A stretch of DNA of 64,000 nt from positions 1,664 through 65,663 of the forward strand of contig CAKOYB010000001.1 of NCBI GenBank assembly GCA_934130435.1. Reading direction: 5' to 3'. The stretch is from an uncultured Clostridia bacterium (GTDB lineage Bacteria > Bacillota > Clostridia > TANB77 > CAG-508). The notes under the pieces were generated by a model that worked only from the letters and a program-made list of their open reading frames with translations, made no database searches and was not told the DNA's origin. Position numbers and translations under genes: made by a program. Of the stretch, positions 14,467-31,072 are shown one piece after another (position 1 is the stretch's first letter; each line of letters starts with the position of its first letter).

Positions 14467-14640
14467 ATTTGCCCTCCAGAAACAAAATTATTCTATATAA
14501 AAACATTATTATGCAATAACAAAATATTATCATAAAAGACAAAACTTTACAATATAATTTTATTTAAATAAATTCTTAATTAGGATAATAACTCTTTAAT
14601 TGTTTTTTAATTTTATTCTATTTTTTCTTCTTTATAACAA

Positions 14641-14838
14641 TTATTCATTAAAAAAAATTTTAGGAATTGATATATCTAGTGCAATAGAAATACTTTCCAT
14701 TACTTCTGTTGATGGATTGTCTCTTTCTCCTCTTTCTAAATGTGATAAATACCCTGCTGATATTCCTGCTTTGTCAGCAAGTTCTTGTAATTTCAATCCT
14801 CTTTTTTCCCTATATTCTCTTATCTTATTTTTATACAT
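14641..14838 (-). CDS. XRE-family helix-turn-helix transcriptional regulator (Cro/SinR-like)
   Basis: 65 aa; HTH_3 motif LKLQELADKAGISAGYLSHLERGER. Confidence 0.7.
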   Translation of the reverse strand: MYKNKIREYREKRGLKLQELADKAGISAGYLSHLERGERDNPSTEVMESISIALDISIPKIFFNE

Positions 14839-15005
14839 TTTTCACCTCTTGTGCCAATTTATTTGTCAAAATGTTATCATATTACAAATTGACAAGTCAA
14901 TACTTTTGTGTTATTTTAATAAAAAATTATTTTTTATTATACTACTAGACAAAATTTATATTATTTTATATAATAATGTATATTTATAGAAAAAGAGGTA
15001 TTATT

Positions 15006-15575
15006 ATGATTGGTGACATGATATCAAAAGCTAGAAAAGAAAAAGGAATGACAAAAACTGAACTTGCTAGACTTACAGAGATTAATATTGGTCATTTAAC
15101 TCACATTGAAAAAGGTGAAAGAAATCCAAGTCATAAAGCTTTAAAAAACATTTGTAAGGCTTTGAATATTCCTTATCAGCAATTAATGTATACATATGAT
15201 AAAACTGTAAATGAAGAACAAGAGTCTTATAATGTCATAAAACATATATCTTATAATAAAATGATAGCTGTAGACAACATTGGTGGTTTTATTGATTGTC
15301 CTCCTAATGTTCCAAGTTCTGCAATTGCATTAAAAGTCAAAGATGATTCAATGACATCTGTTTTTCCAAAAAATTCTTATGTATATGTGGAATTTAATTC
15401 CCCGCTTTCTAATAAGGATTTTGGTGTTTTTTGCTATAATAATAAAATATTAATAAGAAAATTCTTTGTTAGAAACGGAAAAATCACATTAAAAGCTTCT
15501 AATAAAGATTTTGAAGATATTAAAGTGTCAGATAATGACATATTCTATATTATTGGAAAGATTCTTGAAAAATAA
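15006..15575 (+). CDS. XRE-family repressor with C-terminal S24 LexA/CI-like peptidase domain
   Basis: HTH (MTKTELARLTEINIGHLTHIEKGER) plus an S24 domain with an Ser/Lys dyad context (KVKDDSM ... LIRKF). Start chosen at the ATG preceded by AAGAGG, not the upstream in-frame Met of the ORF track. Confidence 0.7.
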   Translation: MIGDMISKARKEKGMTKTELARLTEINIGHLTHIEKGERNPSHKALKNICKALNIPYQQLMYTYDKTVNEEQESYNVIKHISYNKMIAVDNIGGFIDCPPNVPSSAIALKVKDDSMTSVFPKNSYVYVEFNSPLSNKDFGVFCYNNKILIRKFFVRNGKITLKASNKDFEDIKVSDNDIFYIIGKILEK

Positions 15576-15661
15576 AATTATTTTTTATCAAAAATACTTG
15601 ATTTTAAAAATTTATAATAATATAATATTTATACTAAAGATGAAAATTTGAGGAGAAAAAA

Positions 15662-16123
15662 ATGGAATTATTAAAAAATATATTTTTTAATACAGATAAA
15701 TTAATTCAAGGTTCTAGTGTTAAAATTTCATACACTGGTTGTTTATATAATGAACATTCTTCTAATGTTTATCTACATTATGGATATGATAACGAATGGA
15801 AAGAAATAAATGAAATTCAAATGGAAAAAACCGATCTAGGTTTCCAAGCAGAATTAATTCTGCTTCCTTATTCTACATTAAATCTTTGCTTCAGAGATGA
15901 TAATGGAAATTGGGATAATAATCAGAATGCTAATTACATATTTGATATTTCACCTGTAGAGACTGCTTTAACATTATGTGAAGAAAACTCTGTTGATACT
16001 CGAAGACCATTAAGAAAATCATATATTTGGAGTAAAAAAATAAGATTAGCTATATATAAAATATTAGTTTATGTTCCAAAATTAATATCAGGAAATTATA
16101 AAAGAAAAATAACAGAAGAATAA
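15662..16123 (+). CDS. Hypothetical protein with a CBM25/26-like carbohydrate (starch)-binding module signature
   Basis: 153 aa with no signal peptide. Motif VYLHYGYDNEWKEINEIQMEK...FRDDNGNWDNNQNANY resembles CBM25. Confidence 0.35.
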   Translation: MELLKNIFFNTDKLIQGSSVKISYTGCLYNEHSSNVYLHYGYDNEWKEINEIQMEKTDLGFQAELILLPYSTLNLCFRDDNGNWDNNQNANYIFDISPVETALTLCEENSVDTRRPLRKSYIWSKKIRLAIYKILVYVPKLISGNYKRKITEE

Positions 16124-17700: not shown

Positions 17701-17982
17701 ATATATTAAAAATATATTTTCTCCTTTCTAATTTTTTAATTATTTTATCATATTTTTTTAAAAAAGTATAGACAATATAAAAAATTTATTGTATTATGGT
17801 AAAAAATGTAAAAGGTGGTGATGTGTATTGATGTATTATTAGTTTTATTTTTTATCTTTTTTATTTTAAATGTTTCTATTTGTTTTTATTCAATTTATTT
17901 ATTTTTTGATATAAAAATTTTCCACAATTTGCAAGGTTCAAAATTAAATATTAAGAAAAATTCTTTATTTTAGGAGTAGTCT

Positions 17983-19710
17983 ATGTTTGTTAGTACTTTT
18001 AAGAGAAGGCTTATTTTTGTTTGTCTTTTTATGTTTTTAATCTTTTTCTTATATCTTTATTTTTTTTATTCAATTTTTTTGTCTGATAGTATAATTATTT
18101 TCTTTGCTATTCATCCATTTAATATTTGTAAAGAATACCCTAATGAATGGTTTATTTTTAAGAAATTCTTTATTATCACGGCTTTTTTCTCTAACTTAAT
18201 TATTTCAAATGTTTTATATTCAAATATTTTTAATAAGTCTTCTCAAACAAGTTATAACAATTATTCTCCATCTAATTTATCAGATTTATCATTGTATCTT
18301 GGAAATAACACTTTAAATGAACCTATATATATTCCCTCTTCTGGATTATATCAAAATATTCTTGTTACTGGAACAATAGGAACTGGCAAGACCAGCTCTG
18401 CTCTTTATCCTTTCACCCAGCAATTAATTTCATATAAATGTAATTCTTCGACTGAAAAAATTGGAATTCTTATATTGGATGTAAAGGGAAACTACTTTAA
18501 ACAAGTAAAAAAATATTGTTATGATTACAACAGAATTAATGATTTAATTATTATTGATTTAAATAATTCTACTTTTTATAATCCTCTGGATAAACCATAT
18601 TTGAAAGCATCAGTTTTAGCTAATAGATTAAAAACAATTCTTTGTTTATTTTCAAAAAACAATTCTGAATCATATTGGTTAGATAAAGCAGAGCAGGTCC
18701 TTGCTGAGTGCATTAAACTATGTAGACTTTATAATAATAACTATGTAACTTTTTTAGAAATTCATAATTTAATTACAATACCTAATTATTATTCTGATAA
18801 AGTTAAACAGCTAAGAGAACTTTTTATATCTGGAGCTTTTTCAGAAAAAGACTGTTTTAGTCTATTATCTTCCTTAAATTTTTTTGAAAAGGAATTTTCT
18901 CAATTAGATCCCCGAACATTATCTATATTAAAATCAGAAATCACTCTAATTACTAGTTGTTTTGTTTCTGATTTTGAAATAAAAAATATTTTTTGCCCAT
19001 CAAAAGAAAAAATAAATTTTCATGGATTCTCTGACTTAATAAAAAAAGGCAAAATTGTAGTTTTAAATATGAATATCTCAGAATATAAAAATTTGTCAAA
19101 AATAATAGCTGCATATTTAAAACTCGATTTTCAGTCAGAAATCTTGTCTCAACTATCTTATGGCTCAGCTAAACGAACTACAGCTTTTATAAGCGATGAG
19201 TATCAAGAGTATGTTACAGAAACTGATGCAGATTTTTTTTCTCAAAGTAGAGAAGCAAAATGTATTAACATTGTTTCTACTCAAAGCTATACTTCACTTC
19301 TTAATACTCTAAATAACAAATATGCTGTTCAAACTATTATTCAAAATCTTGTAAATAAATTATGGTTTAGAACAGATGATCTTTTTACAATTGAAGAGGC
19401 TCAAAAACAAATTGGAAAAACAGATAAACTTAAATATTCTAAAACAATTTCTGAAAACTCAAAAGAAACAAATTATAGTTTTATTGCGAAATCGTTTACT
19501 TCTGTAGATTCAAATATTTCAGAGAGCATAAATAGTTATTATAACTTTGACTACATTTATGATACTAATTTTTTTACTCAAAATTTAGAGACATTCTCAT
19601 GTCTCGGTTTTATTTCAAATGGTTCTTATATCTGCCCTCCTCAAAAAATTTCTTTAATTCCTTATTTTAAAAAAAATCTTAATTCAAATGGAGGTTACAA
19701 TGAAAAATAA
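17983..19710 (+). CDS. Type IV secretion coupling-protein-like ATPase (VirD4/TraG/TraD family)
   Basis: 575 aa. Two N-terminal TM helices, Walker A VTGTIGTGKTS, then ILILDVKGNY (the ilDpKGe motif of T4CPs). Size typical of Firmicutes T4CPs. Confidence 0.55.
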   Translation: MFVSTFKRRLIFVCLFMFLIFFLYLYFFYSIFLSDSIIIFFAIHPFNICKEYPNEWFIFKKFFIITAFFSNLIISNVLYSNIFNKSSQTSYNNYSPSNLSDLSLYLGNNTLNEPIYIPSSGLYQNILVTGTIGTGKTSSALYPFTQQLISYKCNSSTEKIGILILDVKGNYFKQVKKYCYDYNRINDLIIIDLNNSTFYNPLDKPYLKASVLANRLKTILCLFSKNNSESYWLDKAEQVLAECIKLCRLYNNNYVTFLEIHNLITIPNYYSDKVKQLRELFISGAFSEKDCFSLLSSLNFFEKEFSQLDPRTLSILKSEITLITSCFVSDFEIKNIFCPSKEKINFHGFSDLIKKGKIVVLNMNISEYKNLSKIIAAYLKLDFQSEILSQLSYGSAKRTTAFISDEYQEYVTETDADFFSQSREAKCINIVSTQSYTSLLNTLNNKYAVQTIIQNLVNKLWFRTDDLFTIEEAQKQIGKTDKLKYSKTISENSKETNYSFIAKSFTSVDSNISESINSYYNFDYIYDTNFFTQNLETFSCLGFISNGSYICPPQKISLIPYFKKNLNSNGGYNEK

Positions 19711-20023
19711 ATTAAATTTTATTTTTTTATTTTCTATTTTGTTTTTATTTTTATTCTCGCCTTTTTGTAATGCTGCATATTATCCCGATTTAGTTTCCAA
19801 ATTATTTAAAGCTTTTGAAAAGATAGAAAGTTGGTTTTTAAAGCTTTCTACTCCTGCAGCAGCTGTTGCTATATGTACTGGCGTTTTTATGAAAAAATTA
19901 AGCTTTGGAGATGAAGAAAAAATCAGAACTGGAAAAAAAATAATTCGAGGCTCAATTTTTTCATATGCTTTTATTTTATTAACAAATTTAATTCTTTCTG
20001 CTATCCAAGCCCTTTTAAAATAG
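19700..20023 (+). CDS. VirB2/TrbC-like pilin-like small membrane protein
   Basis: Signal peptide ending ...FCNA. Then hydrophobic helix, a charged loop KKLSFGDEEKIRTGKK, and a second hydrophobic helix: VirB2-like topology. Start at ATG 19700 after GGAGG; it overlaps the end of the T4CP-like gene. Confidence 0.45.
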   Translation: MKNKLNFIFLFSILFLFLFSPFCNAAYYPDLVSKLFKAFEKIESWFLKLSTPAAAVAICTGVFMKKLSFGDEEKIRTGKKIIRGSIFSYAFILLTNLILSAIQALLK

Positions 20024-20044
20024 TTCTAAAAGGAGTATTTTGTA

Positions 20045-20908
20045 TTGAATAATTCGACCACAAATTTAATTATTAATTCAATTAACACTATGCTTGAAAA
20101 AATCTTTTCCTCTGTTGATAATAATCTATACTCTGTATTAGATTATTTTGTGTTTATTGATACAGATATATTAAACGATAAATATCTTAATAAAATATTA
20201 GGTTCTAATACTTCTGGAATCCTCTTAATTTGTAATTCTTTGATTTTTGGAATATTATTATTTTTTTCAATTAAATATTTTTTCTCTCATCTTGGTATAA
20301 CAAACTCAGACCACCCAGTACAATTTATATTTAAACTAGTTGTTTTTTCAATACTAATGAATTTTTCTTTTTTTATTTGTAAAGAAATTATATATATTGT
20401 ATCTCTCATTTCTTCATCAATACGACAGATTGGTGAACGATTATTTTCATCTTCTATATGTTTTTCGAAATTAATTGAAAATCTAAATGTTATTATTTCT
20501 ACTAATACTTCTATTGATATATTTTCTTTAGATGGTTTAATAAAAAGCTTTTTATCTTTTGGTCTTTTAAGTCTTGCAATAACTTATTCTGTAAGATACG
20601 TTCTAATAAAAGTTTTTATTTTAATTTCCCCCTTTGCTTTTATTTGTTTAGTTAACACCTCTACTTCTATTTTTTTCAAGTCATGGATAAAATCCTTTCT
20701 TTCTTTATTATTAGAGCAGGTTTTTATTGCTATAGTTTTAACTTTTATTTTTTCTTTAAATTTTTCATCTTCACAACTCACTTCAAAATTTATTCTAGTT
20801 GGATCAATTCTTGTTTTGTCAAAGGCTAATCATTTCGTTCGAGAACTACTAGGAGGAATTGGAACAGATATTGGGTTAAATTTTTCAAGTATAAAAAAAA
20901 CATTTTAG
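20045..20908 (+). CDS. VirB6/TrbL-like polytopic membrane protein
   Basis: 287 aa with about 6 TM helices. TTG start with AGGAG 9 nt upstream. Position and topology fit VirB6-like; sequence similarity not verifiable here. Confidence 0.4.
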   Translation: MNNSTTNLIINSINTMLEKIFSSVDNNLYSVLDYFVFIDTDILNDKYLNKILGSNTSGILLICNSLIFGILLFFSIKYFFSHLGITNSDHPVQFIFKLVVFSILMNFSFFICKEIIYIVSLISSSIRQIGERLFSSSICFSKLIENLNVIISTNTSIDIFSLDGLIKSFLSFGLLSLAITYSVRYVLIKVFILISPFAFICLVNTSTSIFFKSWIKSFLSLLLEQVFIAIVLTFIFSLNFSSSQLTSKFILVGSILVLSKANHFVRELLGGIGTDIGLNFSSIKKTF

Positions 20909-20920
20909 GTAGGTGATTTT

Positions 20921-21205
20921 TTGAAATTTATTTTTCCTCAAAACTACAATTTTAATAATAAATTTTTGGGTATTATGGATTACTCAACACTAATATTAAA
21001 TATTATTTTTTATCTTTTTATTTTTTGTATTTCAAATTTATTATTTAAAAATATTAATTTAAAAATATTTTTTTGTATTTCTTTTTCTCTTCCTTTATTA
21101 ATACTTAGCTTAACTGGTATAAATAATGAAAATATTTTTCTTGTTTTTATATATTTAATATCTTATATTAAAAGACCTAAAATATATTTATTTAAAAAAT
21201 TTTAA
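20921..21205 (+). CDS. Small 2-TM membrane protein (possible VirB3-like)
   Basis: 94 aa. TTG start with AGGTGA RBS. In G+ T4SS the VirB3-like gene usually sits directly 5' of virB4. Confidence 0.3.
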   Translation: MKFIFPQNYNFNNKFLGIMDYSTLILNIIFYLFIFCISNLLFKNINLKIFFCISFSLPLLILSLTGINNENIFLVFIYLISYIKRPKIYLFKKF

Positions 21206-21278
21206 TTTGTTTTCATTGTATTCATTATTAAAAAATGTTATAATTTAGTCATATTGTTATTTAAGTGGGTGAATTATA

Positions 21279-22241
21279 ATGAAGTTAGAACAAAATGACA
21301 TGCCATTGCTTTTTTCTAGCACCGAAATCCCTGATATATTTTTTACCGAATACTTTTCTGGGGCATCAGGTGATTTTATAAAAGTGTATTTATATATATT
21401 ATTTCTTTCAAAATATAATAAGGATATAAAATTAAATGATTTATCAAAGAAAATCGCAATTACTCTTCCAGTTATTCAGGAAGCTCTTTCTTTCTGGGAA
21501 CAACAAGGAATTATTACTAAAAAGGGTTCTGGTTATATTGTAAATAATCTAAATGAAATTGAACTACATAAGCTATATTCACCAAAACTTTCAATTTCAG
21601 ATAAAACAACTGCAAAAACTGAAAAAGAAAAACTTCGTTCAAAAGCAATAGAATCTATTAATACTATGTTTTTTCAAGGAATTATGTCACCTTCTTGGTA
21701 TAGTGATATAGATTTATGGTTTAAGAAATATGAATTTGATGAAGAAGTAATGATTGCATTATTCAGATATTGTTTTGAAAAATCTGCTCTTCACAGAAAT
21801 TATGTAAAAGCTGTTGCAGATGCGTGGCACTTAAACAATATAAAAACTTTTTCTGAGTTAGATTCCTACTATGAAAAACAGGAAAAAATTAATAAAATAA
21901 AAAAGAGTATATCTAAGAAATTAGGTCTAACAAGAAAACTAACTCAATACGAAGAAGCTTACATAGAAAAATGGATCTCTGAATATAAATATAATCTTGA
22001 TGTAATAGAAATAGCCTTGAAAAAAACAACATCAAAATCTAATCCTAATTTTGATTACTTAGATAAAATGATTTCAGATTGGTATGACAAAAAACTTTTA
22101 AACTCAGATGATGTAAAAAAATATTTATTAGAATTTAAAAATAAATCTAAGCAAATTAAGGAATTAGAAAAAAAGACTAATTATCAAAATTATGATCAAA
22201 GAAATATTACAAACTTTGATGATTTATATGCAAACAATTAG
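21279..22241 (+). CDS. DnaD-domain replication initiation/membrane attachment protein
   Basis: 320 aa with a DnaD-like winged-helix N-terminus and C-terminal DDBH2 region (WYSDIDLWF..., YIEKWISEY, DYLDKMISDWYDKKL). Confidence 0.7.
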   Translation: MKLEQNDMPLLFSSTEIPDIFFTEYFSGASGDFIKVYLYILFLSKYNKDIKLNDLSKKIAITLPVIQEALSFWEQQGIITKKGSGYIVNNLNEIELHKLYSPKLSISDKTTAKTEKEKLRSKAIESINTMFFQGIMSPSWYSDIDLWFKKYEFDEEVMIALFRYCFEKSALHRNYVKAVADAWHLNNIKTFSELDSYYEKQEKINKIKKSISKKLGLTRKLTQYEEAYIEKWISEYKYNLDVIEIALKKTTSKSNPNFDYLDKMISDWYDKKLLNSDDVKKYLLEFKNKSKQIKELEKKTNYQNYDQRNITNFDDLYANN

Positions 22242-22261
22242 ACTAAAATGGAGGTTTTAAT

Positions 22262-23251
22262 TTGAATAATTCTACTTTAAAAGCATTGTTAAAAGAATAT
22301 GAACAATCTCGTTTAGAAAAAGAATTATTATTAGAAAAAAAATTAAATGATTTTTATGAAAATAATCCTGATGTAAGTTCTATTATTGAAAAAATAAATA
22401 GAACTTCAATTGAAATCTCTAAAAATATTCTTTTAAACAAAGATCCCAAAAAACAAAAGGAATTAGAATTAATTTTAGAAAAATATAAGAAGGAAAAACA
22501 ACTGTTATTAAAAAAGTTAAATATATCTGATGATTTTTTTCTTCCTGATTATTCTTGTAAATTATGTAATGATACTGGATATCTAGTTAACAATAGCACT
22601 ATTATGTGTAGTTGTTTAAAACAAAAATTATTAAATATCGAGTATAATAGATCCAACATTTCTAGTTTGGAAAAAGAAAATTTTAACACGTTTGATTTTA
22701 GTGTTTTCTCTAATAATGCAGATGAAAAAAAATATAATTCAAATATTTCTCCTAGAGAAAATATCAAAAAAATAAGAAAAATTTGTGAAGACTTTATACA
22801 AAACTTTAATAATCCCAAAGAAAAAAATTTACTTTTTACAGGCAATACTGGACTTGGAAAAACATTTTTAACAAACTGCATTGCAAATGAATTACTAAAA
22901 TCCGGTAAAACAGTATTATATCAAACTTCCCCTGTAATGCTTGACTCTATACTTGATTATAGATTTGGAAAAAATAATAATTTTAATTATTCCGATTTAT
23001 TATCTGTCGATTTGTTAATAATAGATGATTTAGGAACTGAAAGTTTAAATAATATGAAATTTTCAGAGTTATTTAATATTCTAAATACTAGGCTTTTAAA
23101 TCAAAATCATCATATAACAAAAACTATAATTTCAACAAATTTAAGCTTAAATAATTTATTCAAGACATATGATGAAAGAATTTTTTCAAGACTCGCTGGA
23201 TATTATAATATTTGCAAGTTTTTTGGTGATGATATACGTTTAAAAAAATAA
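22262..23251 (+). CDS. Helicase loader, DnaC/DnaI (IstB-like AAA+) family
   Basis: Zn-binding cysteines (CKLCNDTGY...CSC), Walker A FTGNTGLGKTFL, Walker B LLIIDDLGTE. Confidence 0.75.
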   Translation: MNNSTLKALLKEYEQSRLEKELLLEKKLNDFYENNPDVSSIIEKINRTSIEISKNILLNKDPKKQKELELILEKYKKEKQLLLKKLNISDDFFLPDYSCKLCNDTGYLVNNSTIMCSCLKQKLLNIEYNRSNISSLEKENFNTFDFSVFSNNADEKKYNSNISPRENIKKIRKICEDFIQNFNNPKEKNLLFTGNTGLGKTFLTNCIANELLKSGKTVLYQTSPVMLDSILDYRFGKNNNFNYSDLLSVDLLIIDDLGTESLNNMKFSELFNILNTRLLNQNHHITKTIISTNLSLNNLFKTYDERIFSRLAGYYNICKFFGDDIRLKK

Positions 23252-23266
23252 TACTTTTTAATAAAA

Positions 23267-23296
23267 TAAAAGAGAGGTCAATCCTCTCTTTTATTT
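23267..23296. terminator. Bidirectional terminator between dnaC-like and convergent gyrA
   Basis: AAAGAGAGG-TCAAT-CCTCTCTTT hairpin with flanking T runs. Confidence 0.5.
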
Positions 23297-23308
23297 TGTT
23301 CTTTTTTG

Positions 23309-25744
23309 CTATTCTTCAATATCTGGTGTAATTGTTTCTATACTTACAACTTTACAATTATCACTTGTTCTCATTAATGTAACTCCTTGCGTTGATCTTC
23401 CTAAAATACTTATATCTTTAACCTTCAACCTAATTATTGTTCCTGTATTTGTTATAAGCATAACATCTTCTTCGTCTGTTGCTATTCTTATTCCAACAAT
23501 TTTTCCGGTTTTAGGTGTAATTTTATATGTAATAACTCCTTTACCACCTCTTGTTTGAACTCTGTATTCATCTAATTCTGTTCTTTTTCCAAATCCATTT
23601 TCTGTTATAGCAAGAAGAGTAGCTTTGCTTCCTGAAATTATAGGTTCCATTCCAATGACTTCATCTCCATCATTTATCTTCATTCCTATAACTCCTTGTC
23701 CTGTTCTTCCTATTGGTCTTACGTCCTTTTCTGCAAATGTAATACATAATCCCTCTCTTGTTACTAGCACAACGTTATCTTCTCCATCTGTCATTCTTAC
23801 ATCTATCAACTCATCTCCATTTTTTAGAGTTATTGCTTGAAGTCCAGATTTTCTTGCTGAGTTATATTCTAATAATGCTGTCTTTTTTATCATTCCTGTT
23901 TTCGTAGCCATTAAAAGATATTTTCCTTCTGCAAAATTTGAAATCGGTATAACAGCTGAAATTTTTTCATCTCTATCTAATTGTAATAAATTAACTATGG
24001 CTGTTCCTTTGGCTGTCCTTCCAGCCTCAGGTATTTCATATCCTCTTAATCTGTAAAGTTTTCCTTTATTAGTAAAGAATAAAATTGTATCATGTGTAGA
24101 AGCAGTAAATATTTGCTTTACAAAGTCTTCTTCTCTTGTTGCAATTCCTGTTATTCCTTTTCCTCCTCTTCTTTGACTCTTATATGTGTCTATTGGCATT
24201 CTCTTAACATATCCAAAATGAGTTAATGCAATAACAGCTTGTTCTTCTTTTATTAGGTCTTCTATTTCAAAATCTCCTTCTGCTGCAACTATTTTTGTTT
24301 TTCTTTCGTCTCCAAATTTTTCTTTTACTTCAATTAGTTCTTTTTTTATAATATCAAAAACTAATTTTTCACTTCCTAGAACATCTTTTAAATATGCAAT
24401 TAACTTCATTAATTCTTCATATTCGTTTTCAATTTTTTCTCTTTGTAAGCCTGATAATGTTTTTAATCTCATATCAAGAATTGATTGGGCCTGAATTTCA
24501 GATAGTCCAAATCTTTGCATTAATCTTTCTTTTGCATCATCATATGAGTTCTTTATTATTTCAATAACTTCATCTATATTATCTAGAGCTATTTTTAATC
24601 CTTCTAAGATATGTGCCCTTGCTTCTGCCTTATCTAGGTCAAATTTTGTTCTTCTTAAAACAACTTCTTTTCTATGTTCAATATAATATTCCATACATTG
24701 TTTTAATGTTAATATTCTAGGTTCACCATTTACTAATGCAAGCATTATAATTCCAAATGTATCTTGCATTTGAGTATGTTTAAATAGTAAATTTAGTACA
24801 ACTTGTGCATTTGCATCTCTTTTTAGTTCAATTACTATTCTAACTTTCTCTTTTCTATCAGATTCATCTCTAATTTCTGAAATTCCTTCTATTTTCTTTT
24901 CTTTTGCTAGTTCAGAAATATTTTGAATTAATTTTGCTTTATTAACTTGGTATGGTAAAGATGAAACTATAATACGTTGTTTGTTTCCAGACATTTCTTC
25001 TATTTCTGTTTCAGCTCTTAATGTTATTTTTCCTTTTCCAGTTGTATACGCTTGTTTTATTCCTTCTCTTCCTAATATTAGTGCTCCTGTTGGGAAATCT
25101 GGTCCCTTTACAATTTTCATTAAATCTTCATCACTAATATCATCTTCATCGATAATTTTTATTATTCCATCTATAACCTCTGTTAAGTTATGTGGTGGAA
25201 TATTAGTTGCCATTCCAACTGCTATTCCAGATGAACCATTTATAAGAAGTGCCGGTATTTGAGCTGGTAAAACAGTTGGTTCTTGTAGTCTATCATCATA
25301 GTTTGGCATAAAATTTACGGTATTTTTTTCAATATCAGCCAACATGTAGTTTGATATTTTAGCCATTCTTGCTTCTGTATACCTCATTGCAGCAGCACCA
25401 TCACCATCTATTGATCCAAAATTTCCATGTCCATCAATTAGCATATATCTAAGAGAAAAGTCTTGTGCCATTCTAACCATTGCATCATATACAGCCGCAT
25501 CGCCGTGTGGATGATATCTTCCTAAAACTGAACCTACTGTATTTGCACATTTCCTGTATGGCTTATCTGATGTTATTCCATCTTCATGCATTGCATATAA
25601 TATTCTTCTATGTACTGGTTTTAATCCGTCTCTAACATCTGGTAATGCACGTGAAACTATAACACTCATAGCATAATCTATATATGCAGTCTTCATTTCT
25701 TTTTCAATGTCTCTTTCAATTATTGTTTCTCCTGGTCTGTCCAT
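23309..25744 (-). CDS. gyrA: DNA gyrase subunit A
   Basis: 811 aa; active-site region AMRYTEARM, GyrA box QRRGGKG. Full length. Confidence 0.95.
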   Translation of the reverse strand: MDRPGETIIERDIEKEMKTAYIDYAMSVIVSRALPDVRDGLKPVHRRILYAMHEDGITSDKPYRKCANTVGSVLGRYHPHGDAAVYDAMVRMAQDFSLRYMLIDGHGNFGSIDGDGAAAMRYTEARMAKISNYMLADIEKNTVNFMPNYDDRLQEPTVLPAQIPALLINGSSGIAVGMATNIPPHNLTEVIDGIIKIIDEDDISDEDLMKIVKGPDFPTGALILGREGIKQAYTTGKGKITLRAETEIEEMSGNKQRIIVSSLPYQVNKAKLIQNISELAKEKKIEGISEIRDESDRKEKVRIVIELKRDANAQVVLNLLFKHTQMQDTFGIIMLALVNGEPRILTLKQCMEYYIEHRKEVVLRRTKFDLDKAEARAHILEGLKIALDNIDEVIEIIKNSYDDAKERLMQRFGLSEIQAQSILDMRLKTLSGLQREKIENEYEELMKLIAYLKDVLGSEKLVFDIIKKELIEVKEKFGDERKTKIVAAEGDFEIEDLIKEEQAVIALTHFGYVKRMPIDTYKSQRRGGKGITGIATREEDFVKQIFTASTHDTILFFTNKGKLYRLRGYEIPEAGRTAKGTAIVNLLQLDRDEKISAVIPISNFAEGKYLLMATKTGMIKKTALLEYNSARKSGLQAITLKNGDELIDVRMTDGEDNVVLVTREGLCITFAEKDVRPIGRTGQGVIGMKINDGDEVIGMEPIISGSKATLLAITENGFGKRTELDEYRVQTRGGKGVITYKITPKTGKIVGIRIATDEEDVMLITNTGTIIRLKVKDISILGRSTQGVTLMRTSDNCKVVSIETITPDIEE

Positions 25745-25883
25745 TATAAAATAACCTCTTTTCTTTGCATTTTAAAGTACTTAAAATGCTTGTTTCCTTA
25801 CGGATTTATTATACTAAACCTTCCAAAAATATGCAAGAAAAAAAATACAAAAAAGCCAAAAAACCTTCTAATTTGCGACAAAC

Positions 25884-25914
25884 TTGACATAAACTTTTTT
25901 TTATGAGGTATAAT
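25884..25914 (+). promoter_or_regulatory. Putative sigma-A promoter (TTGACA-19-TATAAT) divergent from gyrA
   Basis: TTGACA 25884-25889, TATAAT 25909-25914. The 19-nt spacer is suboptimal. Confidence 0.3.
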
Positions 25915-25958
25915 AATTATAGATAATTTTAAAAATTATTTTATTTAAGGAGGCAATT

Positions 25959-26189
25959 GATGTCTTAGAACAGATAAATAAACAGAATCGTGAAAAAAAT
26001 ATAGACCAAACTTTTACATGTAACTATCAAGGTTGCATTGATATTGATAAACATCCATTGTTTTTTAAAACTGCTGAAAGAACAGAATATACAAAAGCCG
26101 ATGGAAGTTCTGCTGAAACTCTGGGTAATAATTCAATTATCTTTGATCCAAGCAATATCTTAAATGATCCAGACGAAATTGGAAGATAA
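25959..26189 (+). pseudogene. Start-less 76-codon ORF after a strong RBS and a 2-codon mini-ORF (probable gene remnant or leader)
   Basis: AAGGAGG(25947-25953) then TTG ATG TCT TAG. An overlapping +2 frame stays open for 76 codons with no ATG/GTG/TTG near its 5' end. Confidence 0.3.
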
Positions 26190-26316: not shown

Positions 26317-27042
26317 TTATACCAAAATTTGTGCTAATTGTTTTTCTTCTTCTGATAAATTATAATTAATTCCTTTATTTTTTATTAATTTATGTATGTT
26401 TTCTATTTGTTTTGCTTCTTTAATTGTACTTTCTAATGGTATTATATCTTCTATTTCTGTTTTTATTTTTTTATATTCTCTTTCCATACCTTCCATGTCT
26501 TTTGCTGAATAACAGTTTTTCCAGTTGGAAATATATTTAGTTGTTTTTTCAATTGAATTAACTTGTCCCAAAAATTTATCTTCTATATTACTTTCAATTG
26601 TATTTAATATTGCATTCTTTCCTTTTTTTATTAATGTTGCTGTTCCCTTTTTCATTAGTTTGTTTTTGGCCGCATTGTTTACAACATTATTAATAACATC
26701 TGATACATTATCTATTATTCCACCTTTTTTAATTGCTGTTTGTACTTGGGATAAATTATCAAATTTTCCAGTAACAATTCCTAGTGCACTTTTTCCTAAA
26801 TCAATAGCTGAATTTATTGCAACATTTATCCCTTCTTTAAGCCCACTTGTTAACATAGTATTTTTTATGTTGATTATTTGGTCGTCAATTAATTTTGGAA
26901 AAATTGCCCTCAATCCAATATCTATGCCGGTATTAATTATTTTTCCAAATGTTGTTTCTAAAAAATTCTTTTGACTCTTCTCTGTTACTAATTCATTAGT
27001 TAATGTTCTAATTTCATTATTATTCTCTAACTTATTTTGCAT
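26317..27042 (-). CDS. Hypothetical soluble helical protein (241 aa), last gene of the gyrB-gyrA island
   Basis: No TM helix or signal peptide. Repetitive amphipathic N/K/I-rich helices. No recognisable motif. Confidence 0.5.
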   Translation of the reverse strand: MQNKLENNNEIRTLTNELVTEKSQKNFLETTFGKIINTGIDIGLRAIFPKLIDDQIINIKNTMLTSGLKEGINVAINSAIDLGKSALGIVTGKFDNLSQVQTAIKKGGIIDNVSDVINNVVNNAAKNKLMKKGTATLIKKGKNAILNTIESNIEDKFLGQVNSIEKTTKYISNWKNCYSAKDMEGMEREYKKIKTEIEDIIPLESTIKEAKQIENIHKLIKNKGINYNLSEEEKQLAQILV

Positions 27043-27098: not shown

Positions 27099-28109
27099 TT
27101 ATAGTAATATTTCATTTTTTATAATACTAATAAATTTTCTTTTTTCTTTTTTATTTAAAAAATTTATATTAACTTTATTATCTATTATTAAATTTATATT
27201 TGAAATAAAATCAATTTTTTCAATTTTACTTCTTAAATTTAAGGTTTTTTCTAGAATATTTTTACTTAATGCATTTTTATTATATTTGTTTAATATTATT
27301 TTTATATTATTTTTATTTTTTATTTTATTTATTATTTTATTTAATTCTAATAAATTATTTTCTATTATAAATATTTCTATATTCGCTTTTTTGAAAAAAT
27401 TTTCTTTATTAAAATCAAATAATAAATAATCATACTTTTCTTTTAAAGTTTTTATTTTATTATTTATATTTATTTTTTCTTCTTTACATTCTTTAATGTT
27501 TATTATACTTAAATTTTTATTTATTAAATTAAAAGATTTAATTCCTTTATTTGGTAAATAAATTTTTGTTATTGAATTACTCCATTCATCTCCATCTATT
27601 ATTAAAACTTTCTTACCAAATTTTTTAATCAATAATTCAGTAATTATAATTGAAAAAAATGTTTTTCCACTCCCTCTATTTCCAAATATTCTAATTGTTT
27701 TATTTTTTTGTTTTTTATTTAATATTTTAATTTTTTCATTAATTGTTTTTGAATTTGTTTTTTTTATTTTTATATAGGTTATATTATTTTGATTTATTAT
27801 TTTTTGATTTTTTTCATTAATATTTAAAATAAAAATAATTATTTTTATTTTATTATTTATTGTTCTTATTTTTTTTATTAGATTAATTAAACTAATATTT
27901 CCTATTAAACTTTCATTTAAAAATATTAAATCAACATTTTTGTCTTTTTCTAATATTTCAATTATTCCTTCTTTATATTGAATGTCTGAATTAATTATTT
28001 TTATTTTATTAATTTTTTTTATTTCATTTAATATTTTTGTATTATTAACAGCTGTTATTGTATTTATATTTTTTTCTTTATATAATTGTTCTTCTTTCAA
28101 ATTCATCAC
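27099..28109 (-). CDS. ParA/MinD/CpaE-like P-loop ATPase with N-terminal receiver-like domain
   Basis: 336 aa. N-terminal half resembles a pseudo-receiver (DLIFLNESL). C-terminal half has IFGNRGSGKTFFS...KKVLIIDGDEW, the ParA/MinD/TadZ arrangement. Overlaps the upstream ORF by 32 nt. Confidence 0.5.
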   Translation of the reverse strand: MMNLKEEQLYKEKNINTITAVNNTKILNEIKKINKIKIINSDIQYKEGIIEILEKDKNVDLIFLNESLIGNISLINLIKKIRTINNKIKIIIFILNINEKNQKIINQNNITYIKIKKTNSKTINEKIKILNKKQKNKTIRIFGNRGSGKTFFSIIITELLIKKFGKKVLIIDGDEWSNSITKIYLPNKGIKSFNLINKNLSIINIKECKEEKININNKIKTLKEKYDYLLFDFNKENFFKKANIEIFIIENNLLELNKIINKIKNKNNIKIILNKYNKNALSKNILEKTLNLRSKIEKIDFISNINLIIDNKVNINFLNKKEKRKFISIIKNEILL

Positions 28110-29907
28110 TTTCTATATTTACTAAAATATGATTTTCTCCAACAAACATTAAACATTCACCTCTTTTAAGAGTTTTTATTTCGATTTTTTCTTTTTCTGA
28201 AAGTGAAGAAAATTTACTTAATATTTTTATGTTATCCTCTTCTAATGAAAAAAAAGTTTTAATTTCCGAATTATTTAATATACTTTTTCCATAAACTCCA
28301 TTTTCCAGGCTAAAAATATCTGAAATATCTTGCGTAATAGCAACCGCACTTCCTCCATATTTTCTAATTGTTTTAAAAATCTTATAAATAAAACTTGCAA
28401 CTATTTTATTTGATGTTATTCCAATTAGTCTCCACACTTCGTCTAAATATATAGCTTTTTTTATCTTTCTATTATTTTTAATTTTATCCCAAAATAATTC
28501 TGTAAAGATATACATTCCATATTTTAAATTTTCTTCTCCTAAGTCATAAACATCTGCAACAATTAAACTATTATTTAATTCTACATTTGTATAATTATTA
28601 AAAAATTTTAAGGAACCTTTTATAAATGGTTTTAATTTTATTGCAAATATTTTTGTTTTATTATCATTATTTAAAACATTATATAAATCACTTAGAATTG
28701 GCATATCTTTTCTAGTTTTAAATATATATTTATTTTTTTCTTTTTTATATAAAGATTTATCTTCGAAATTTATATTTTTTAATTCATAACATTTAATAAT
28801 TTTTTCTTCTAAAATTCCTCTTTCCTCTTCATTTATTTCTCCAAAAATCAAATTAAAAAATCCAATTAATTTTAATATTTTTGTTTCTAAATATCCTTTT
28901 CCTTGTTCTTCTAAGCTTTCTTTTCTAATGTCTAAAATATTTATATATGTTTCAGAATTTGGTCCTATTTTTATTAATGTTCCATTTAAATTGGTACAAA
29001 GTTTTGTATATTCTCTTTCTGGATCTATAATAAATTGTTCTATTCCATTTAGTCTACTTCTTAATATTAATAATTTTGTAAAAAAAGATTTTCCAGCTCC
29101 ACTTGTTCCAAAAATACATATATTAGAGTTTTTATATTTTTTATCATTATATCTATCAATAAAAACAAGTGAATTATTATATATATTATTTCCTATATAT
29201 ATTCCTTCATCATCAAATATAGCAGATGATATAAATGGATATGTTGCACACATTCCAGATGTAAGCACATTTCTTTTTGCTGCATTTTTTATTTCTATGC
29301 TATTTTCTAGAAATGGCATTGTCGCTAAAAAAACTTGTTCTTGTCTAAAATATGCTTTTTTTGAATATAAACCTGAACTTTGCAAAATATTTTCTATTTT
29401 ATTTAAAATAAAATTTATTTCTTCCTTTTTTTGAGTAAATATATCTATATAAATATATAAATAAAATAATTCTTGATTATTTATTTGAATTTCTTTCCTC
29501 AAATATTTTGCATCACTATACGTAAATGCTGCAATTTCAATGTCTTGTCTATTTTCTGATGTTTCTTTTATTTGAGCACCAACATTTCCAATGTGATATG
29601 TTAAATCTTTTATTGCTTTTTGTGTATTTGCTTTCTCATAAAAAATTGAAATATTCATATTAATATTACTGTCTATCAATTTTTTTAATATAATATCTTC
29701 TTGTTCTCTGTTATAGTTATATATAATTAATCCAGAATAATACATTTCGTCTAATTCTAAATATTTTGGATTTTCTAAATTTAAATAGTTTGGGCAAATT
29801 TTATCTTTAAAACTAATTGCCCCTTCATATATATCAATTTTATTTTTAGGTTCTTTTTTTATTTTTAAAATTATTTTCTTTATTATTTTATTAATTATTT
29901 TCTTCAT
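28078..29907 (-). CDS. VirB4/ConE/TrsE-like T4SS ATPase, C-terminal 609-aa part
   Basis: Walker A CIFGTSGAGKSFF, IIDPEREY, Walker B AIYLDEVWRL, VAITQDISD. Upstream region has the NPKYLELDEMYYSGLIIYNY pattern of G+ VirB4 proteins. Confidence 0.65.
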   Translation of the reverse strand: MKKIINKIIKKIILKIKKEPKNKIDIYEGAISFKDKICPNYLNLENPKYLELDEMYYSGLIIYNYNREQEDIILKKLIDSNINMNISIFYEKANTQKAIKDLTYHIGNVGAQIKETSENRQDIEIAAFTYSDAKYLRKEIQINNQELFYLYIYIDIFTQKKEEINFILNKIENILQSSGLYSKKAYFRQEQVFLATMPFLENSIEIKNAAKRNVLTSGMCATYPFISSAIFDDEGIYIGNNIYNNSLVFIDRYNDKKYKNSNICIFGTSGAGKSFFTKLLILRSRLNGIEQFIIDPEREYTKLCTNLNGTLIKIGPNSETYINILDIRKESLEEQGKGYLETKILKLIGFFNLIFGEINEEERGILEEKIIKCYELKNINFEDKSLYKKEKNKYIFKTRKDMPILSDLYNVLNNDNKTKIFAIKLKPFIKGSLKFFNNYTNVELNNSLIVADVYDLGEENLKYGMYIFTELFWDKIKNNRKIKKAIYLDEVWRLIGITSNKIVASFIYKIFKTIRKYGGSAVAITQDISDIFSLENGVYGKSILNNSEIKTFFSLEEDNIKILSKFSSLSEKEKIEIKTLKRGECLMFVGENHILVNIESDEFERRTII

Positions 29908-29918: not shown

Positions 29919-30476
29919 TTAAAAAATTTTTCTATTAATAAATGAATTATATATTTTTTTAATTTCATCTATTTTTTGAATTTTTATAATAGAGTTTCCA
30001 CATCTGCTTAATGAATCTTTTATTTTTAAGAATTTTTCATTTAAGTCTTCTCTTATTTCATTAATTTTTTTTTCATCCTCTATCTCTGATTTTATTAATA
30101 AATAAAATTTTTTTAATGTGGATTTTTTTTCTATATTTTTTTGATTAATAAAATTAATATAATTATCTATCAGGTTTACTATATTTAAATTATTTAAACC
30201 CATTTCCTTTTCTTTTTGAAAATTTACATTTTTAATTATTTTGTTTAAATCTTCTTTATTGCTTTGAATTATAATTTGTGTTTCTCTACTACAATTTTTT
30301 AAAAAGATTTTATATGAGTTTAATATTGCTTGTTTTTCAAATTCTGTTTTTAAATTATAATTAATTGGATTTACTTTTATTATTATAAAAAATATATTAT
30401 TTTTTACTTTAATAATTCCATCACAAAAAAACTGCTCTATTGGCAACCATTCTTGAATACTATTATTTTTTTTCAT
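29919..30476 (-). CDS. VirB4/ConE-like N-terminal fragment (185 aa)
   Basis: SIQEWLPIEQFFCDGIIKVKNN...VNPINYNLKTEFEKQAILNSYKIFLKN matches the conserved N-terminus of G+ VirB4 homologues (Tn916 Orf16, ConE, TcpF). The stop lies 11 nt before the ATG of the C-part, in a different frame. RBS AGGAGA upstream. Confidence 0.55.
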   Translation of the reverse strand: MKKNNSIQEWLPIEQFFCDGIIKVKNNIFFIIIKVNPINYNLKTEFEKQAILNSYKIFLKNCSRETQIIIQSNKEDLNKIIKNVNFQKEKEMGLNNLNIVNLIDNYINFINQKNIEKKSTLKKFYLLIKSEIEDEKKINEIREDLNEKFLKIKDSLSRCGNSIIKIQKIDEIKKIYNSFINRKIF

Positions 30477-30565: not shown

Positions 30566-30593
30566 ATTATATATAAAATATCATTTTTGTCAA
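30566..30593 (-). promoter_or_regulatory. Putative sigma-A promoter for the island operon
   Basis: On the minus strand: TTGACA (complement of 30588-30593), 16 nt spacer, TATAAT (complement of 30566-30571). About 90 nt upstream of the 30476 ATG. Confidence 0.4.
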
Positions 30594-31069: not shown

Positions 31070-31072
31070 TAA

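What the first reader, a model, noticed from the sequence alone, without database searches (positions are those of the whole stretch)
17983..21205. Second T4SS-like block: coupling-protein-like ATPase, VirB2-like pilin-like, VirB6-like and VirB3-like membrane proteins, between a tRNA cluster and the dnaD/dnaC-like genes
The 575-aa protein has 2 N-terminal TM helices, Walker A GTIGTGKTS and the T4CP-diagnostic ILILDVKGN (ilDpKGe) motif. The 107-aa product starting at 19700 has a signal peptide plus helix-loop-helix, the VirB2/TrbC-pilin topology. It is followed by a 6-TM protein and a 94-aa 2-TM protein. Genes overlap or are tightly spaced with RBSs (two use TTG starts), suggesting an operon. 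No relaxase, VirB1-like hydrolase or VirB8/VirB11 homologue lies nearby, so this is not a canonical intact ICE.
Basis: partly seen in the sequence, partly recalled or inferred. Interest (0 to 1): 0.7.

Follow-up and report, generated by a model that had tools for sequence, protein, structure and literature searches.

The report
Domesticated chromosomal type IV secretion system
A conjugation-type (type IV) secretion machine with its own pilin has become a permanent, vertically inherited part of the chromosome beside the replication origin in a large clade of uncultured low-GC gut Clostridia; so far this arrangement has been described only for the ultra-small Patescibacteria.

Summary
17983-21205 encodes a TrwB/TraD-type coupling ATPase, a VirB2-like pilin (true start 19700), a VirB6-fold membrane protein and a PrgI/VirB3-like protein. 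A fifth gene was missed: a conserved ~50-aa membrane protein at 17815-17973.

This is neither an ICE nor a remnant. In 80 species-level genomes the order is kept: small ORF, T4CP, pilin, VirB6, VirB3, DnaD, DnaC, gyrA, p241, ParA-like, VirB4, TrsD-like. dN/dS is 0.065-0.09, the same as the adjacent dnaD/dnaC. T4CP distances track GyrA distances (r=0.95). The synteny persists in lineages whose GyrA is only 63% identical. The "first block" between gyrB and gyrA supplies a split VirB4 (TrsD-like N-domain plus ATPase).

Mobile relatives at 34-39% identity carry the same genes contiguously, with a relaxase, a wall hydrolase and Tad-pilus genes. The chromosomal version is therefore a domesticated descendant that has lost relaxase and hydrolase locally. 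The 64-kb window has no relaxase, integrase or att repeats.

Function is inferred, not shown: a host-retained, pilus-capable translocon that is not used for self-transfer. The closest analogue is the origin-proximal, relaxase-less, pilin-bearing T4SS of Patescibacteria, which recent reviews call unique among monoderms.

The parts
17769..17797 (+). Promoter-like site (TAGACA-17-TATTAT) upstream of the small ORF and T4CP
   Evidence: Consensus scan, 10 of 12 matches. Weak evidence: promoter-like matches are not enriched over shuffles in this AT-rich DNA.
17815..17973 (+). Conserved small membrane protein (~50 aa; ATG at 17821). One TM followed by an 'HNxQGSKLxIKK' tail. Function unknown; new part of the block.
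   Evidence: tblastn hits in 72 of 80 related loci, always just upstream of the T4CP. Aligned in 45 loci, with RBSs, and a stop 3-30 nt from or overlapping the T4CP start. Median dN/dS 0.2.
17983..19710 (+). Type IV coupling protein (T4CP), TrwB/TraD type, membrane-anchored P-loop ATPase
   Evidence: PF10412 36.1 bits (cutoff 20.5) and TIGR03743 E 8.7e-9. Walker A/B and TQS invariant in 55 species. dN/dS 0.076. Relatives sit in conjugative clusters.
19700..20023 (+). VirB2/TrbC-like T4SS pilin (107 aa): signal peptide, then two hydrophobic helices joined by the charged loop KKLSFGDEEKIRTGKK
   Evidence: PF18895 25.2 bits for the window protein (cutoff 26.6). 46 of 47 orthologues hit PF18895 and 12 of 47 hit PF04956. 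Alignment. RBS. dN/dS 0.086.
20045..20908 (+). VirB6/TrbL-like polytopic membrane protein
20921..21205 (+). VirB3/PrgI-like two-TM protein (TTG start)
   Evidence: 19 of 50 orthologues hit PrgI and 5 hit TcpE. hhalign 91% probability, E 1e-6, to the PrgI domain of the Vescimonas PrgI-VirB4 fusion; BLASTP 3e-6. 31% identity to the VirB3 gene next to VirB4 in mobile relative L089. dN/dS 0.074.
29919..30476 (-). TrsD-like protein: the N-terminal domain of VirB4 as a separate polypeptide
   Evidence: NF041427 TrsD E 1.3e-8 over its full length, and CD1110 VirB4 model positions 2-158. 37% identity to residues 20-202 of the unsplit 861-aa VirB4 of L089.
28078..29907 (-). VirB4 ATPase (C-terminal two thirds)
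   Evidence: PDB 4AG5 VirB4 E 2.4e-38. NF045971 312.6 bits over model positions 180-732. PF19044, AAA_10 and DUF87. 42.5% identity to L089 VirB4 residues 244-831.
27099..28109 (-). ParA/MinD-like P-loop protein with an N-terminal receiver-like domain (TadZ/CpaE-like architecture). Candidate positioning or assembly factor.
   Evidence: PF01656 CbiA 32.6 bits. The orthologue alignment shows a conserved N-domain, a variable linker and GxxGxGK[ST]. The N-domain is 36% identical to the first gene of the Tad-like module next to the T4SS in L089. The TadZ-like reading is an inference.
26317..27042 (-). Conserved soluble all-helical protein of unknown function (p241), last gene of the VirB4 operon
   Evidence: 1603 homologues, none with a Pfam domain. 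Syntenic in related loci. dN/dS 0.09. The AF2 model is poor (pLDDT 61) and has no fold match.
30566..30593 (-). Perfect sigma-70 consensus (TTGACA-16-TATAAT) upstream of the TrsD-VirB4 operon
   Evidence: 12 of 12 match, the best in the scanned 14 kb. Sequence read.
21279..23251 (+). DnaD-like and DnaC-like replication genes. Context, not part of the machine: they are co-oriented with the T4CP block, with no terminator until 23260-23300.
   Evidence: PF07261 and NF005304 336 bits. Terminator. A possible own extended -10 promoter at about 21216-21244, read by eye.

Best explanation
The four genes, together with a small upstream ORF and the four-gene block between gyrA and gyrB, form one monoderm-type type IV secretion system. 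Its parts are a T4CP, a VirB2-like pilin, VirB6, VirB3/PrgI, a split VirB4 (TrsD-like N-domain plus ATPase), a ParA/TadZ-like protein and two unknowns.

The system is fixed in the chromosome 6-19 kb from oriC and is inherited vertically across a large clade of uncultured, low-GC gut Clostridia. It descends from a family of conjugative elements that encode the same genes contiguously, along with a relaxase, a wall hydrolase and Tad-pilus genes. Locally, the chromosomal version has lost the relaxase, the hydrolase and all mobility functions.

Inferred mechanism (not shown):
- VirB3, VirB6 and the two VirB4 polypeptides form the membrane translocon.
- VirB4 drives extraction and polymerisation of the Sec-exported pilin into a short pilus or conduit.
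- The T4CP hexamer recruits a cytoplasmic substrate and feeds it to the channel.

Because selection acts at host level and there is no local relaxase, the substrate is probably not the element itself. The most likely use is contact-dependent delivery or exchange with neighbouring cells, protein or DNA, as proposed for the Patescibacteria T4SS.
For: Shown:
- Component identities.
- Conserved gene order in 80 species-level loci, out of 295 species with a relative of the T4CP.
- Conserved protein lengths.
- dN/dS of 0.065-0.09 for T4CP, pilin, VirB6, VirB3 and p241, against 0.062 and 0.089 for the adjacent dnaD and dnaC.
- Invariant ATPase motifs.
- Pairwise T4CP and VirB6 distances track GyrA distances (Pearson 0.945 and 0.88), as well as or better than DnaD does (0.86).
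- The T4CP-pilin-VirB6-VirB3-DnaD-DnaC order persists at 35-46% T4CP identity and 63% GyrA identity.
- Two rearranged genomes (L054, L066) still keep the two blocks within 10 kb.
- The 64-kb window is otherwise housekeeping, with no integrase or relaxase and no att-like repeats.
- Mobile relatives L084 and L089 carry the same set contiguously with relaxase PF03432, MobC, an M23 or C39 peptidase and RcpC-TadZ-CpaF. The unsplit VirB4 of L089 aligns to both window polypeptides.

Precedent in the literature: Patescibacteria have an origin-proximal, relaxase-less T4SS with TrsD+VirB4, PrgI, VirB6 and PF18895 pilins. It is essential in Southlakia.
Against: - No functional data exist. Expression, pilus formation and substrate are all inferred.
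- No VirB8-like or VirB1-like (hydrolase) component was found near either block, so the machine may be incomplete or may use unrecognised parts (p241, the small ORF).
- A relaxase could be encoded elsewhere in the genome, which I could not inspect.
- The window pilin scores just below Pfam's cutoff (25.2 against 26.6 bits), and the window VirB6 has no Pfam hit of its own.
- The T4CP family profile finds no solved T4CP by sequence.
- The VirB4 block is much lower in GC (19%) than its surroundings, which is unexplained.
- A direct phylogenetic link to the Patescibacteria clade was not tested.
Confidence: 0.8

Rival explanations
1. The block is a decaying remnant of an integrated conjugative element, left behind after the relaxase, hydrolase and VirB8 were lost, and is no longer functional.
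For: The window has no relaxase, integrase or VirB1/VirB8/VirB11. The genes are split into two blocks. Mobile relatives have the complete set.
Against: dN/dS of 0.065-0.09 matches the housekeeping neighbours. ORFs are intact and of constant length in 45-70 species each. The ATPase motifs are invariant. Synteny is retained down to 63% GyrA identity. A remnant would not survive that long.
Confidence: 0.03
2. It is part of a currently mobile ICE or genomic island inserted next to the tRNA cluster.
For: A tRNA-Thr/Glu/Lys cluster lies 600 bp upstream. The T4SS genes are of conjugative ancestry. DnaD/DnaC-like genes are common in mobile-element replication modules.
Against: There is no integrase, relaxase or att-like direct repeat. 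The same flanking housekeeping genes appear in 80 species. Distances track GyrA. The DnaC-like protein matches the Clostridial chromosomal equivalog NF005304 at 336 bits. GC of the T4CP block equals its surroundings.
Confidence: 0.03
3. It is a DNA-uptake (competence) machine, like the H. pylori ComB T4SS or the archaeal Ced system. The pilus would capture DNA and pass it to ComEA/ComEC.
For: It has a VirB2-like pilin, VirB6, VirB3 and VirB4 without a relaxase, the core composition of ComB and Ced. A ComEA gene is in the window at 57073-57741. The clade has reduced genomes, according to the literature, if it is TANB77.
Against: From established knowledge, ComB and Ced lack a coupling protein. 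Here the T4CP is one of the best-conserved parts, with invariant catalytic motifs. In Southlakia the T4SS is essential independently of ComEC. Whether the clade lacks ComG-type pseudopilus genes is unknown.
Confidence: 0.1
4. The 575-aa protein is not a coupling protein but another membrane-anchored HerA/FtsK-superfamily ATPase, and the small membrane proteins only mimic T4SS topology.
For: The family profile finds no solved T4CP. hhalign to a CD1115 VirD4 is weak. There are weak PADLOC hits to mad8, HerA and SspF. Only 49 plasmid records match.
Against: PF10412 is above its curated cutoff. Homologues at 30-39% identity are the T4CP of clusters with TrbL-VirB8-VirB9-VirB10-VirB11 plus relaxase (L088), or VirB4, PF18895 pilin and relaxase PF03432 (L089). 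Independent family or fold evidence supports each neighbour.
Confidence: 0.03

Closest known systems
Chromosomal T4SS of Patescibacteria/CPR (Southlakia epibionticum SEML1_0006-0019; Quinonero-Coronel et al. 2025, PMC12102498; Wang et al. 2023, PMC10633639)
   Same: Monoderm, MPF_FATA-related. Chromosomal and close to dnaA/dnaN. No associated relaxase. TrsD-like protein plus VirB4, PrgI-type VirB3, VirB6, and VirB2-like pilins detected with PF18895/PF04956. Conserved across a whole lineage of reduced-genome organisms.
   Different: The host is a Clostridia clade, not CPR. There is one pilin gene rather than arrays of 2-11. The T4CP is in the cluster and strongly conserved; in CPR it is usually elsewhere and non-essential in Southlakia. 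No VirB1- or VirB8-like genes are nearby. The cluster is split by gyrA-dnaC-dnaD. Phylogenetic relatedness of VirB4 to the CPR clade was not tested, and neither was essentiality.
Conjugative T4SS family in uncultured Clostridiales-type mobile elements (loci L089 and L084 found here), related to MPF_FATA systems such as pGO1 Trs (TrsC/TrsD/TrsE) and CTn2 (CD1110 VirB4)
   Same: Homologous T4CP (34-36% identity), PF18895 pilin (36%), VirB6, VirB3 and VirB4 (34-42%). L084 also has the TrsD/VirB4 split. A ParA/TadZ-like protein is linked to the cluster. VirB4 matches CD1110, Mycoplasma-ICE and TraC-type models.
   Different: The mobile relatives are contiguous. They carry relaxase PF03432 plus MobC (L089), ParB and a primase (L084), an M23 or C39 peptidase and a Tad-pilus module. 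The window system has none of these nearby, is embedded in housekeeping genes and is inherited vertically.
R388 Trw / Agrobacterium VirB-VirD4 (MPF_T) and Legionella Dot/Icm
   Different: No outer-membrane core (VirB7/9/10), no VirB5, VirB8 or VirB11. Sequence identity to solved components is 7-18%.
DNA-import T4SS-like systems: H. pylori ComB and archaeal Ced
   Same: Relaxase-less, host-beneficial machines fixed in the chromosome, built from VirB2-, VirB3-, VirB4- and VirB6-like parts.
   Different: Those systems have no coupling protein (established knowledge). The best CedB-model hit seen here was to the Vescimonas fusion, not the window protein.

Membership tests
T4CP (VirD4/TrwB/TraD coupling proteins) | N-terminal transmembrane anchor | tested here: met
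   Hydropathy shows segments at 2-49 and 56-80.
T4CP (VirD4/TrwB/TraD coupling proteins) | P-loop NBD with conserved Walker A and B | tested here: met
   G130, G133, G135-K-T, D405-E406 and T433-Q-S are invariant in 55 species.
T4CP (VirD4/TrwB/TraD coupling proteins) | Match to a T4CP-specific profile above the curated threshold | tested here: met
   PF10412 36.1 bits against 20.5. PF12696 21.6 against 22, just below. All 120 best homologues carry PF10412.
T4CP (VirD4/TrwB/TraD coupling proteins) | All-alpha domain inserted in the NBD; hexameric ring | not tested
A helical insertion at about residues 205-350 is inferred from the sequence only.
T4CP (VirD4/TrwB/TraD coupling proteins) | Encoded with T4SS genes; homologues act in conjugative clusters | tested here: met
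   L088 (MPF_T cluster plus relaxase, 30% identity) and L089 (relaxase PF03432, 36%).
VirB2/TrbC-type T4SS pilin | Signal peptide followed by two hydrophobic helices joined by a short charged loop; mature size about 70-90 aa | tested here: met
   Alignment of 47 orthologues and hydropathy. AxA-type cleavage context (FCNA/AYY).
VirB2/TrbC-type T4SS pilin | Profile match (PF18895 or PF04956) | tested here: inconclusive
   The window protein scores 25.2 bits against a cutoff of 26.6. 46 of 47 orthologues hit PF18895 at E<=0.01 and 12 of 47 hit PF04956, best 4.8e-6. There is no plasmid homologue by tblastn.
VirB2/TrbC-type T4SS pilin | Polymerises into a pilus | not testable with these tools
   Needs microscopy or biochemistry.
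VirB6/TrbL | Polytopic inner-membrane protein with the VirB6 helical fold | tested here: met
VirB6/TrbL | Sequence-profile match to PF04610 | tested here: inconclusive
   The window protein has no hit. 20 of 49 orthologues hit, best E 3.8e-5. Distant orthologues hit TrbL, TrbL_3 or TrbL_4 weakly.
VirB3/PrgI | Small protein (~95-110 aa) with two TMs, homologous to PrgI/VirB3 | tested here: met
   Two TMs. hhalign 91% probability, E 1e-6, to the PrgI domain of a PrgI-VirB4 fusion. 19 of 50 orthologues hit PF12666 weakly.
VirB3/PrgI | Encoded next to or fused with VirB4 | tested here: not met
   In the window it is 7 kb from VirB4 on the other strand. The adjacency holds in the mobile relatives L084 and L089.
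VirB4 | Homology to the VirB4 ATPase domain, including a solved structure | tested here: met
   4AG5 E 2.4e-38. NF045971 scores 312.6 bits against a cutoff of 325 because the N-domain is a separate protein.
Integrative conjugative element / conjugative MPF_FATA system | Relaxase (and oriT) associated with the T4SS | tested here: not met
   None in the 64-kb window or in the conserved flanks of 80 loci. The rest of the genome was not inspected.
Integrative conjugative element / conjugative MPF_FATA system | Integrase or recombinase and element boundaries | tested here: not met
   No integrase. Only low-complexity repeats.
Integrative conjugative element / conjugative MPF_FATA system | Cell-wall hydrolase (VirB1-like) and VirB8-like protein | tested here: not met
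   Neither is recognisable near either block. p241 and the small ORF remain unassigned.
Patescibacteria-type chromosomal T4SS | Chromosomal, origin-proximal, no relaxase nearby | tested here: met
   dnaA at 35578-36927, DnaA boxes at 36958-37076, GC-skew switch at about 36 kb. The two blocks lie 6-19 kb away.
Patescibacteria-type chromosomal T4SS | TrsD + VirB4, PrgI, VirB6 and PF18895-type pilin | tested here: met
Patescibacteria-type chromosomal T4SS | VirB4 falls in the monophyletic CPR clade; arrays of divergent pilins; essential for growth | not tested
   No CPR sequences could be brought in. There is a single pilin gene here. Essentiality needs experiments.

The most novel reading that the evidence does not exclude
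A whole order-level clade of uncultured, reduced-genome gut Clostridia, plausibly GTDB TANB77 and relatives, has converted a conjugative T4SS into a core, pilus-forming organelle. Together with the clade's conserved Tad pilus, this organelle would mediate obligate contact-dependent exchange with other cells. That would be the first non-Patescibacteria example of a T4SS serving as a housekeeping lifestyle determinant in a monoderm, and a possible reason these bacteria resist cultivation.
Probability: 0.15. Interest if true: 0.85.

Novelty: new variant of a known kind. Interest (0 to 1): 0.68.

Why it matters
Current reviews state that VirB2-type pilins do not occur in Gram-positive T4SSs except in Patescibacteria. 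They also call the Patescibacteria system unique among monoderms (PMC12857230).

This locus shows the same solution in Clostridia: relaxase-less, origin-proximal, pilin-bearing and vertically inherited. It also reveals relaxase-bearing mobile relatives that carry a PF18895 pilin. These give a concrete evolutionary route from conjugation machine to host organelle.

The clade is abundant in human and animal guts and uncultured. If it is TANB77, it is the taxon most consistently linked to the response to checkpoint immunotherapy, and surface pilins of that order are already reported to be immunostimulatory (PMC11680825). A second conserved surface filament system would therefore be of direct interest. 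It also offers testable hypotheses about why these organisms cannot be grown alone.

Tried and rejected
1. Sequence-profile searches of the VirB6, pilin, VirB3 and T4CP families against PDB sequences found nothing useful. Fold comparison was needed for VirB6.
2. hhalign of the T4CP profile against a CD1115-type VirD4, and against the window VirB4, aligned only the Walker A region. The protein is TrwB/TraD-type, not TraG/VirD4-type.
3. The AF2 model of p241 was poor (pLDDT 61) and Foldseek gave only generic helical repeats. p241 stays unassigned. An earlier weak Imm-NTF2 hit (E 0.016) was not pursued as VirB8-like.
4. The PADLOC and PHROGs scans gave no convincing defence or phage assignment.
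5. The afdb50 fold library was unavailable, so I could not list the organisms of structural neighbours or test the CPR link that way.
6. Rfam found only tRNAs in the window.
7. The repeat search for att sites returned only AT-rich chance matches.
8. The ORF-like stretch at 25923-26189 (+) between gyrA and p241 has no canonical start and no conservation in related loci. I dismissed it.
9. The TANB77 paper holds no supplementary tables as text, so I could not confirm that the related MAGs belong to TANB77.
10. Promoter-like matches are no more frequent than in shuffled sequence (115 against 110.6). Only the perfect 12 of 12 site is worth mention.

Full report
**Setting.** The window is a low-GC (~25%) Firmicute chromosome segment that contains the replication origin. 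The genes dnaA (35578-36927), dnaN, recF and gyrB (31073-33004) lie on the minus strand. The GC skew changes sign at about 36 kb, and four DnaA boxes sit at 36958-37076. gyrA (23309-25744, -) is separated from gyrB by a 5.3-kb, 19%-GC insert. All other genes in the 64 kb are housekeeping: mrdA, mreBCD, radC, yidC, jag, mnmEG, rsmG, soj/spo0J, comEA, leuS and others. There is no integrase or relaxase.

**The observation.**
- The 575-aa protein has the quoted GTIGTGKTS and ILILDVKGN motifs and N-terminal hydrophobic segments.
- A GGAGG six bases before the ATG at 19700 supports the 107-aa pilin start.
- The TTG starts of the 287-aa and 94-aa genes are backed by RBSs and by the N-termini of orthologues.
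- One gene was missed: a ~50-aa single-TM protein at 17815/17821-17973. Its stop lies 10 nt before the T4CP start. It gives tblastn hits in 72 of 80 related loci, always in that position, has the conserved tail 'HNxQGSKLxIKK', and shows a median dN/dS of 0.2.

**Component identities.**
- *T4CP.* Pfam TrwB_AAD_bind scores 36.1 bits (cutoff 20.5), TraG-D_C 21.6 (cutoff 22), and TIGR03743 gives E 8.7e-9. The protein is divergent. Only 49 of 72,556 plasmids match, the best at 29% identity. The family profile finds no solved T4CP, and hhalign to a CD1115 VirD4 aligns only the P-loop. A search of 1.84 billion cluster representatives gives a smooth gradient of relatives. Their contexts settle the question. 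At 30% identity the homologue is the T4CP of a TrbL-VirB8-VirB9-VirB10-T4CP-VirB11 cluster with a relaxase (L088). At 36% it is the T4CP of a cluster with relaxase PF03432, MobC, VirB4 and a PF18895 pilin (L089).
- *Pilin.* The window protein is just under the PF18895 cutoff (25.2 against 26.6 bits). However, 46 of 47 orthologues hit PF18895 and 12 hit TrbC/VirB2 PF04956. The alignment shows a signal peptide, a hydrophobic helix, an invariant charged loop (KFSFGDEEKIRTGKK) and a second hydrophobic helix.
- *VirB3.* There are weak PrgI and TcpE hits in orthologues. hhalign gives 91% probability, E 1e-6, over the full length to the PrgI domain of a Vescimonas PrgI-VirB4 fusion.

**The partner block between gyrB and gyrA.**
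- The 609-aa protein is a VirB4: PDB 4AG5 at E 2.4e-38 and the CD1110 model at positions 180-732 with 312.6 bits.
- The 185-aa protein upstream of it is TrsD-like, that is, the VirB4 N-terminal domain as a separate polypeptide (NF041427, E 1.3e-8). The unsplit 861-aa VirB4 of L089 aligns to both: 37% identity to the 185-aa protein and 42.5% to the 609-aa protein.
- Next comes a protein with a receiver-like N-domain and a degenerate ParA/MinD P-loop. Its N-domain is 36% identical to the first gene of the Tad-like module next to the T4SS of L089.
- The last gene encodes a conserved all-helical 241-aa protein that belongs to no known family.
- A perfect TTGACA-16-TATAAT lies upstream of this operon.

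**Not an ICE, not a remnant.** A scan of one genome per GTDB species found relatives of the T4CP in 295 species. All 80 loci kept are gut MAGs, most labelled uncultured Clostridia or Clostridium sp., a few Lachnospiraceae, Bacilli or Bacillota.
- In essentially every locus long enough, the order is DUF1858, [small ORF], T4CP, pilin, VirB6, VirB3, DnaD, DnaC, gyrA, p241, ParA-like, VirB4, TrsD-like.
- Protein lengths are constant and the catalytic motifs are invariant.
- dN/dS between close pairs is 0.076 (T4CP), 0.086 (pilin), 0.065 (VirB6), 0.074 (VirB3) and 0.09 (p241), against 0.062 and 0.089 for dnaD and dnaC.
- Pairwise T4CP and VirB6 distances correlate with GyrA distances (Pearson 0.945 and 0.88), as well as or better than DnaD does (0.86).
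- More distant genomes keep the T4CP-pilin-VirB6-VirB3-DnaD-DnaC order next to gyrA. These have T4CP identity of 35-46%, and L090 has GyrA identity of only 63%.
- Two rearranged genomes (L054, L066) still hold both blocks within 10 kb.
- No att-like repeats flank the region.

**Origin.** Homologues in a Clostridiales MAG (L084) and in L089 carry the same genes contiguously.
- L084 has T4CP, pilin, VirB6, a C39 peptidase, VirB3, TrsD and VirB4, together with ParB and a DUF3991/Toprim primase.
- L089 has relaxase PF03432, MobC and an M23 peptidase alongside the T4SS genes.
- In both, an RcpC-TadZ-CpaF Tad-pilus module follows.

The window system is therefore best read as a domesticated descendant of this family of mobile T4SSs. 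It has lost relaxase, hydrolase and mobility genes locally and was split by rearrangement around gyrA.

**Comparison with the literature.** The Patescibacteria T4SS is described as chromosomal and often next to dnaA/dnaN. It is relaxase-less and has TrsD+VirB4, PrgI, VirB6 and PF18895/PF04956 pilins. It is nested in MPF_FATA and essential for epibiotic growth of Southlakia. A 2025 review states that VirB2 and VirB5 are not found in Gram-positive T4SSs apart from this exception, and calls it unique among monoderms. I found no paper describing a T4SS in TANB77, CAG-508 or similar clades. The TANB77 paper reports only a clade-exclusive Tad pilus cluster. Its description of TANB77 fits the related MAGs: uncultured, low GC, reduced genome, inconsistent NCBI names. 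I could not verify membership.

**Function.** This part is inference. The conserved T4CP argues for export of a cytoplasmic substrate rather than a ComB/Ced-type uptake machine. Host-level purifying selection and the lack of a local relaxase argue against self-transfer. The pilin, the ParA/TadZ-like protein and the ancestral link to Tad genes suggest a surface filament and contact apparatus. The substrate, any missing VirB8/VirB1 functions, and the roles of p241 and the small ORF all remain open.

Noticed in passing
window 25745-31072: gyrB and gyrA, usually adjacent in Firmicutes, are separated by the 5.3-kb TrsD-VirB4-ParA-p241 operon. Its GC is only 19%, against about 25% around it. The same insertion is conserved in related genomes. 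The extreme AT bias is unexplained.
   Followed up: partly
L084:19508-22286 and L089:17457-21854: In the mobile relatives the T4SS is directly followed by a Tad-pilus module (CbiA/TadZ-like, RcpC/CpaB, AAA_31, T2SSE/CpaF). The literature reports a clade-exclusive Tad pilus cluster in TANB77 (PMC11680825). The T4SS and the Tad pilus may have been acquired together and may work together.
   Followed up: partly
L083:1864-2235 (= window 20908-21279): In the public record that carries the identical VirB6 protein, no gene is called for the 94-aa VirB3-like ORF (TTG start). This component is probably missing from many automatic annotations.
   Followed up: no
window 30600-31040: About 440 bp of non-coding DNA lies between the gyrB terminator (31040-31068) and the perfect promoter of the VirB4 operon. 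On the minus strand it is unusually C-rich for this genome. It has no Rfam match.
   Followed up: no
window 36928-37974 and 35257-35577: Probable oriC. There are four DnaA boxes (TTWTCCACA) at 36958, 36970, 37047 and 37068 upstream of dnaA, and one at 35320 between dnaA and dnaN. The GC-skew sign changes at about 36 kb. A lone DnaA box at 17918 lies inside the small ORF upstream of the T4CP.
   Followed up: partly
window 21216-21244: A TTGTAT-17-TATAAT with an upstream TG (extended -10) sits between the VirB3-like gene and dnaD. dnaD-dnaC may therefore have their own promoter as well as read-through from the T4SS genes. The only strong terminator is at 23260-23300.
   Followed up: no
window 12634-16123: A set of genes is syntenic with the T4CP block in many related loci: a VanW/G5/PG_binding_4 protein (12634-14466, -), a LexA-like HTH+S24 peptidase (14976-15575, +) with a divergent small HTH gene (14641-14838, -), and a CBM53/CBM25-like 153-aa protein (15662-16123). 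No link to the T4SS was tested.
   Followed up: no
window 25923-26189 (+): An 88-codon open frame between gyrA and p241 is preceded by AAGGAGG but has no canonical start codon in frame. It has no homologue in the 80 related loci.
   Followed up: yes
window 57073-57741 (-): A ComEA-like competence DNA receptor gene (helix-hairpin-helix C-terminus) is present, so at least part of a conventional DNA-uptake pathway exists in this organism (identified by reading the sequence only).
   Followed up: no
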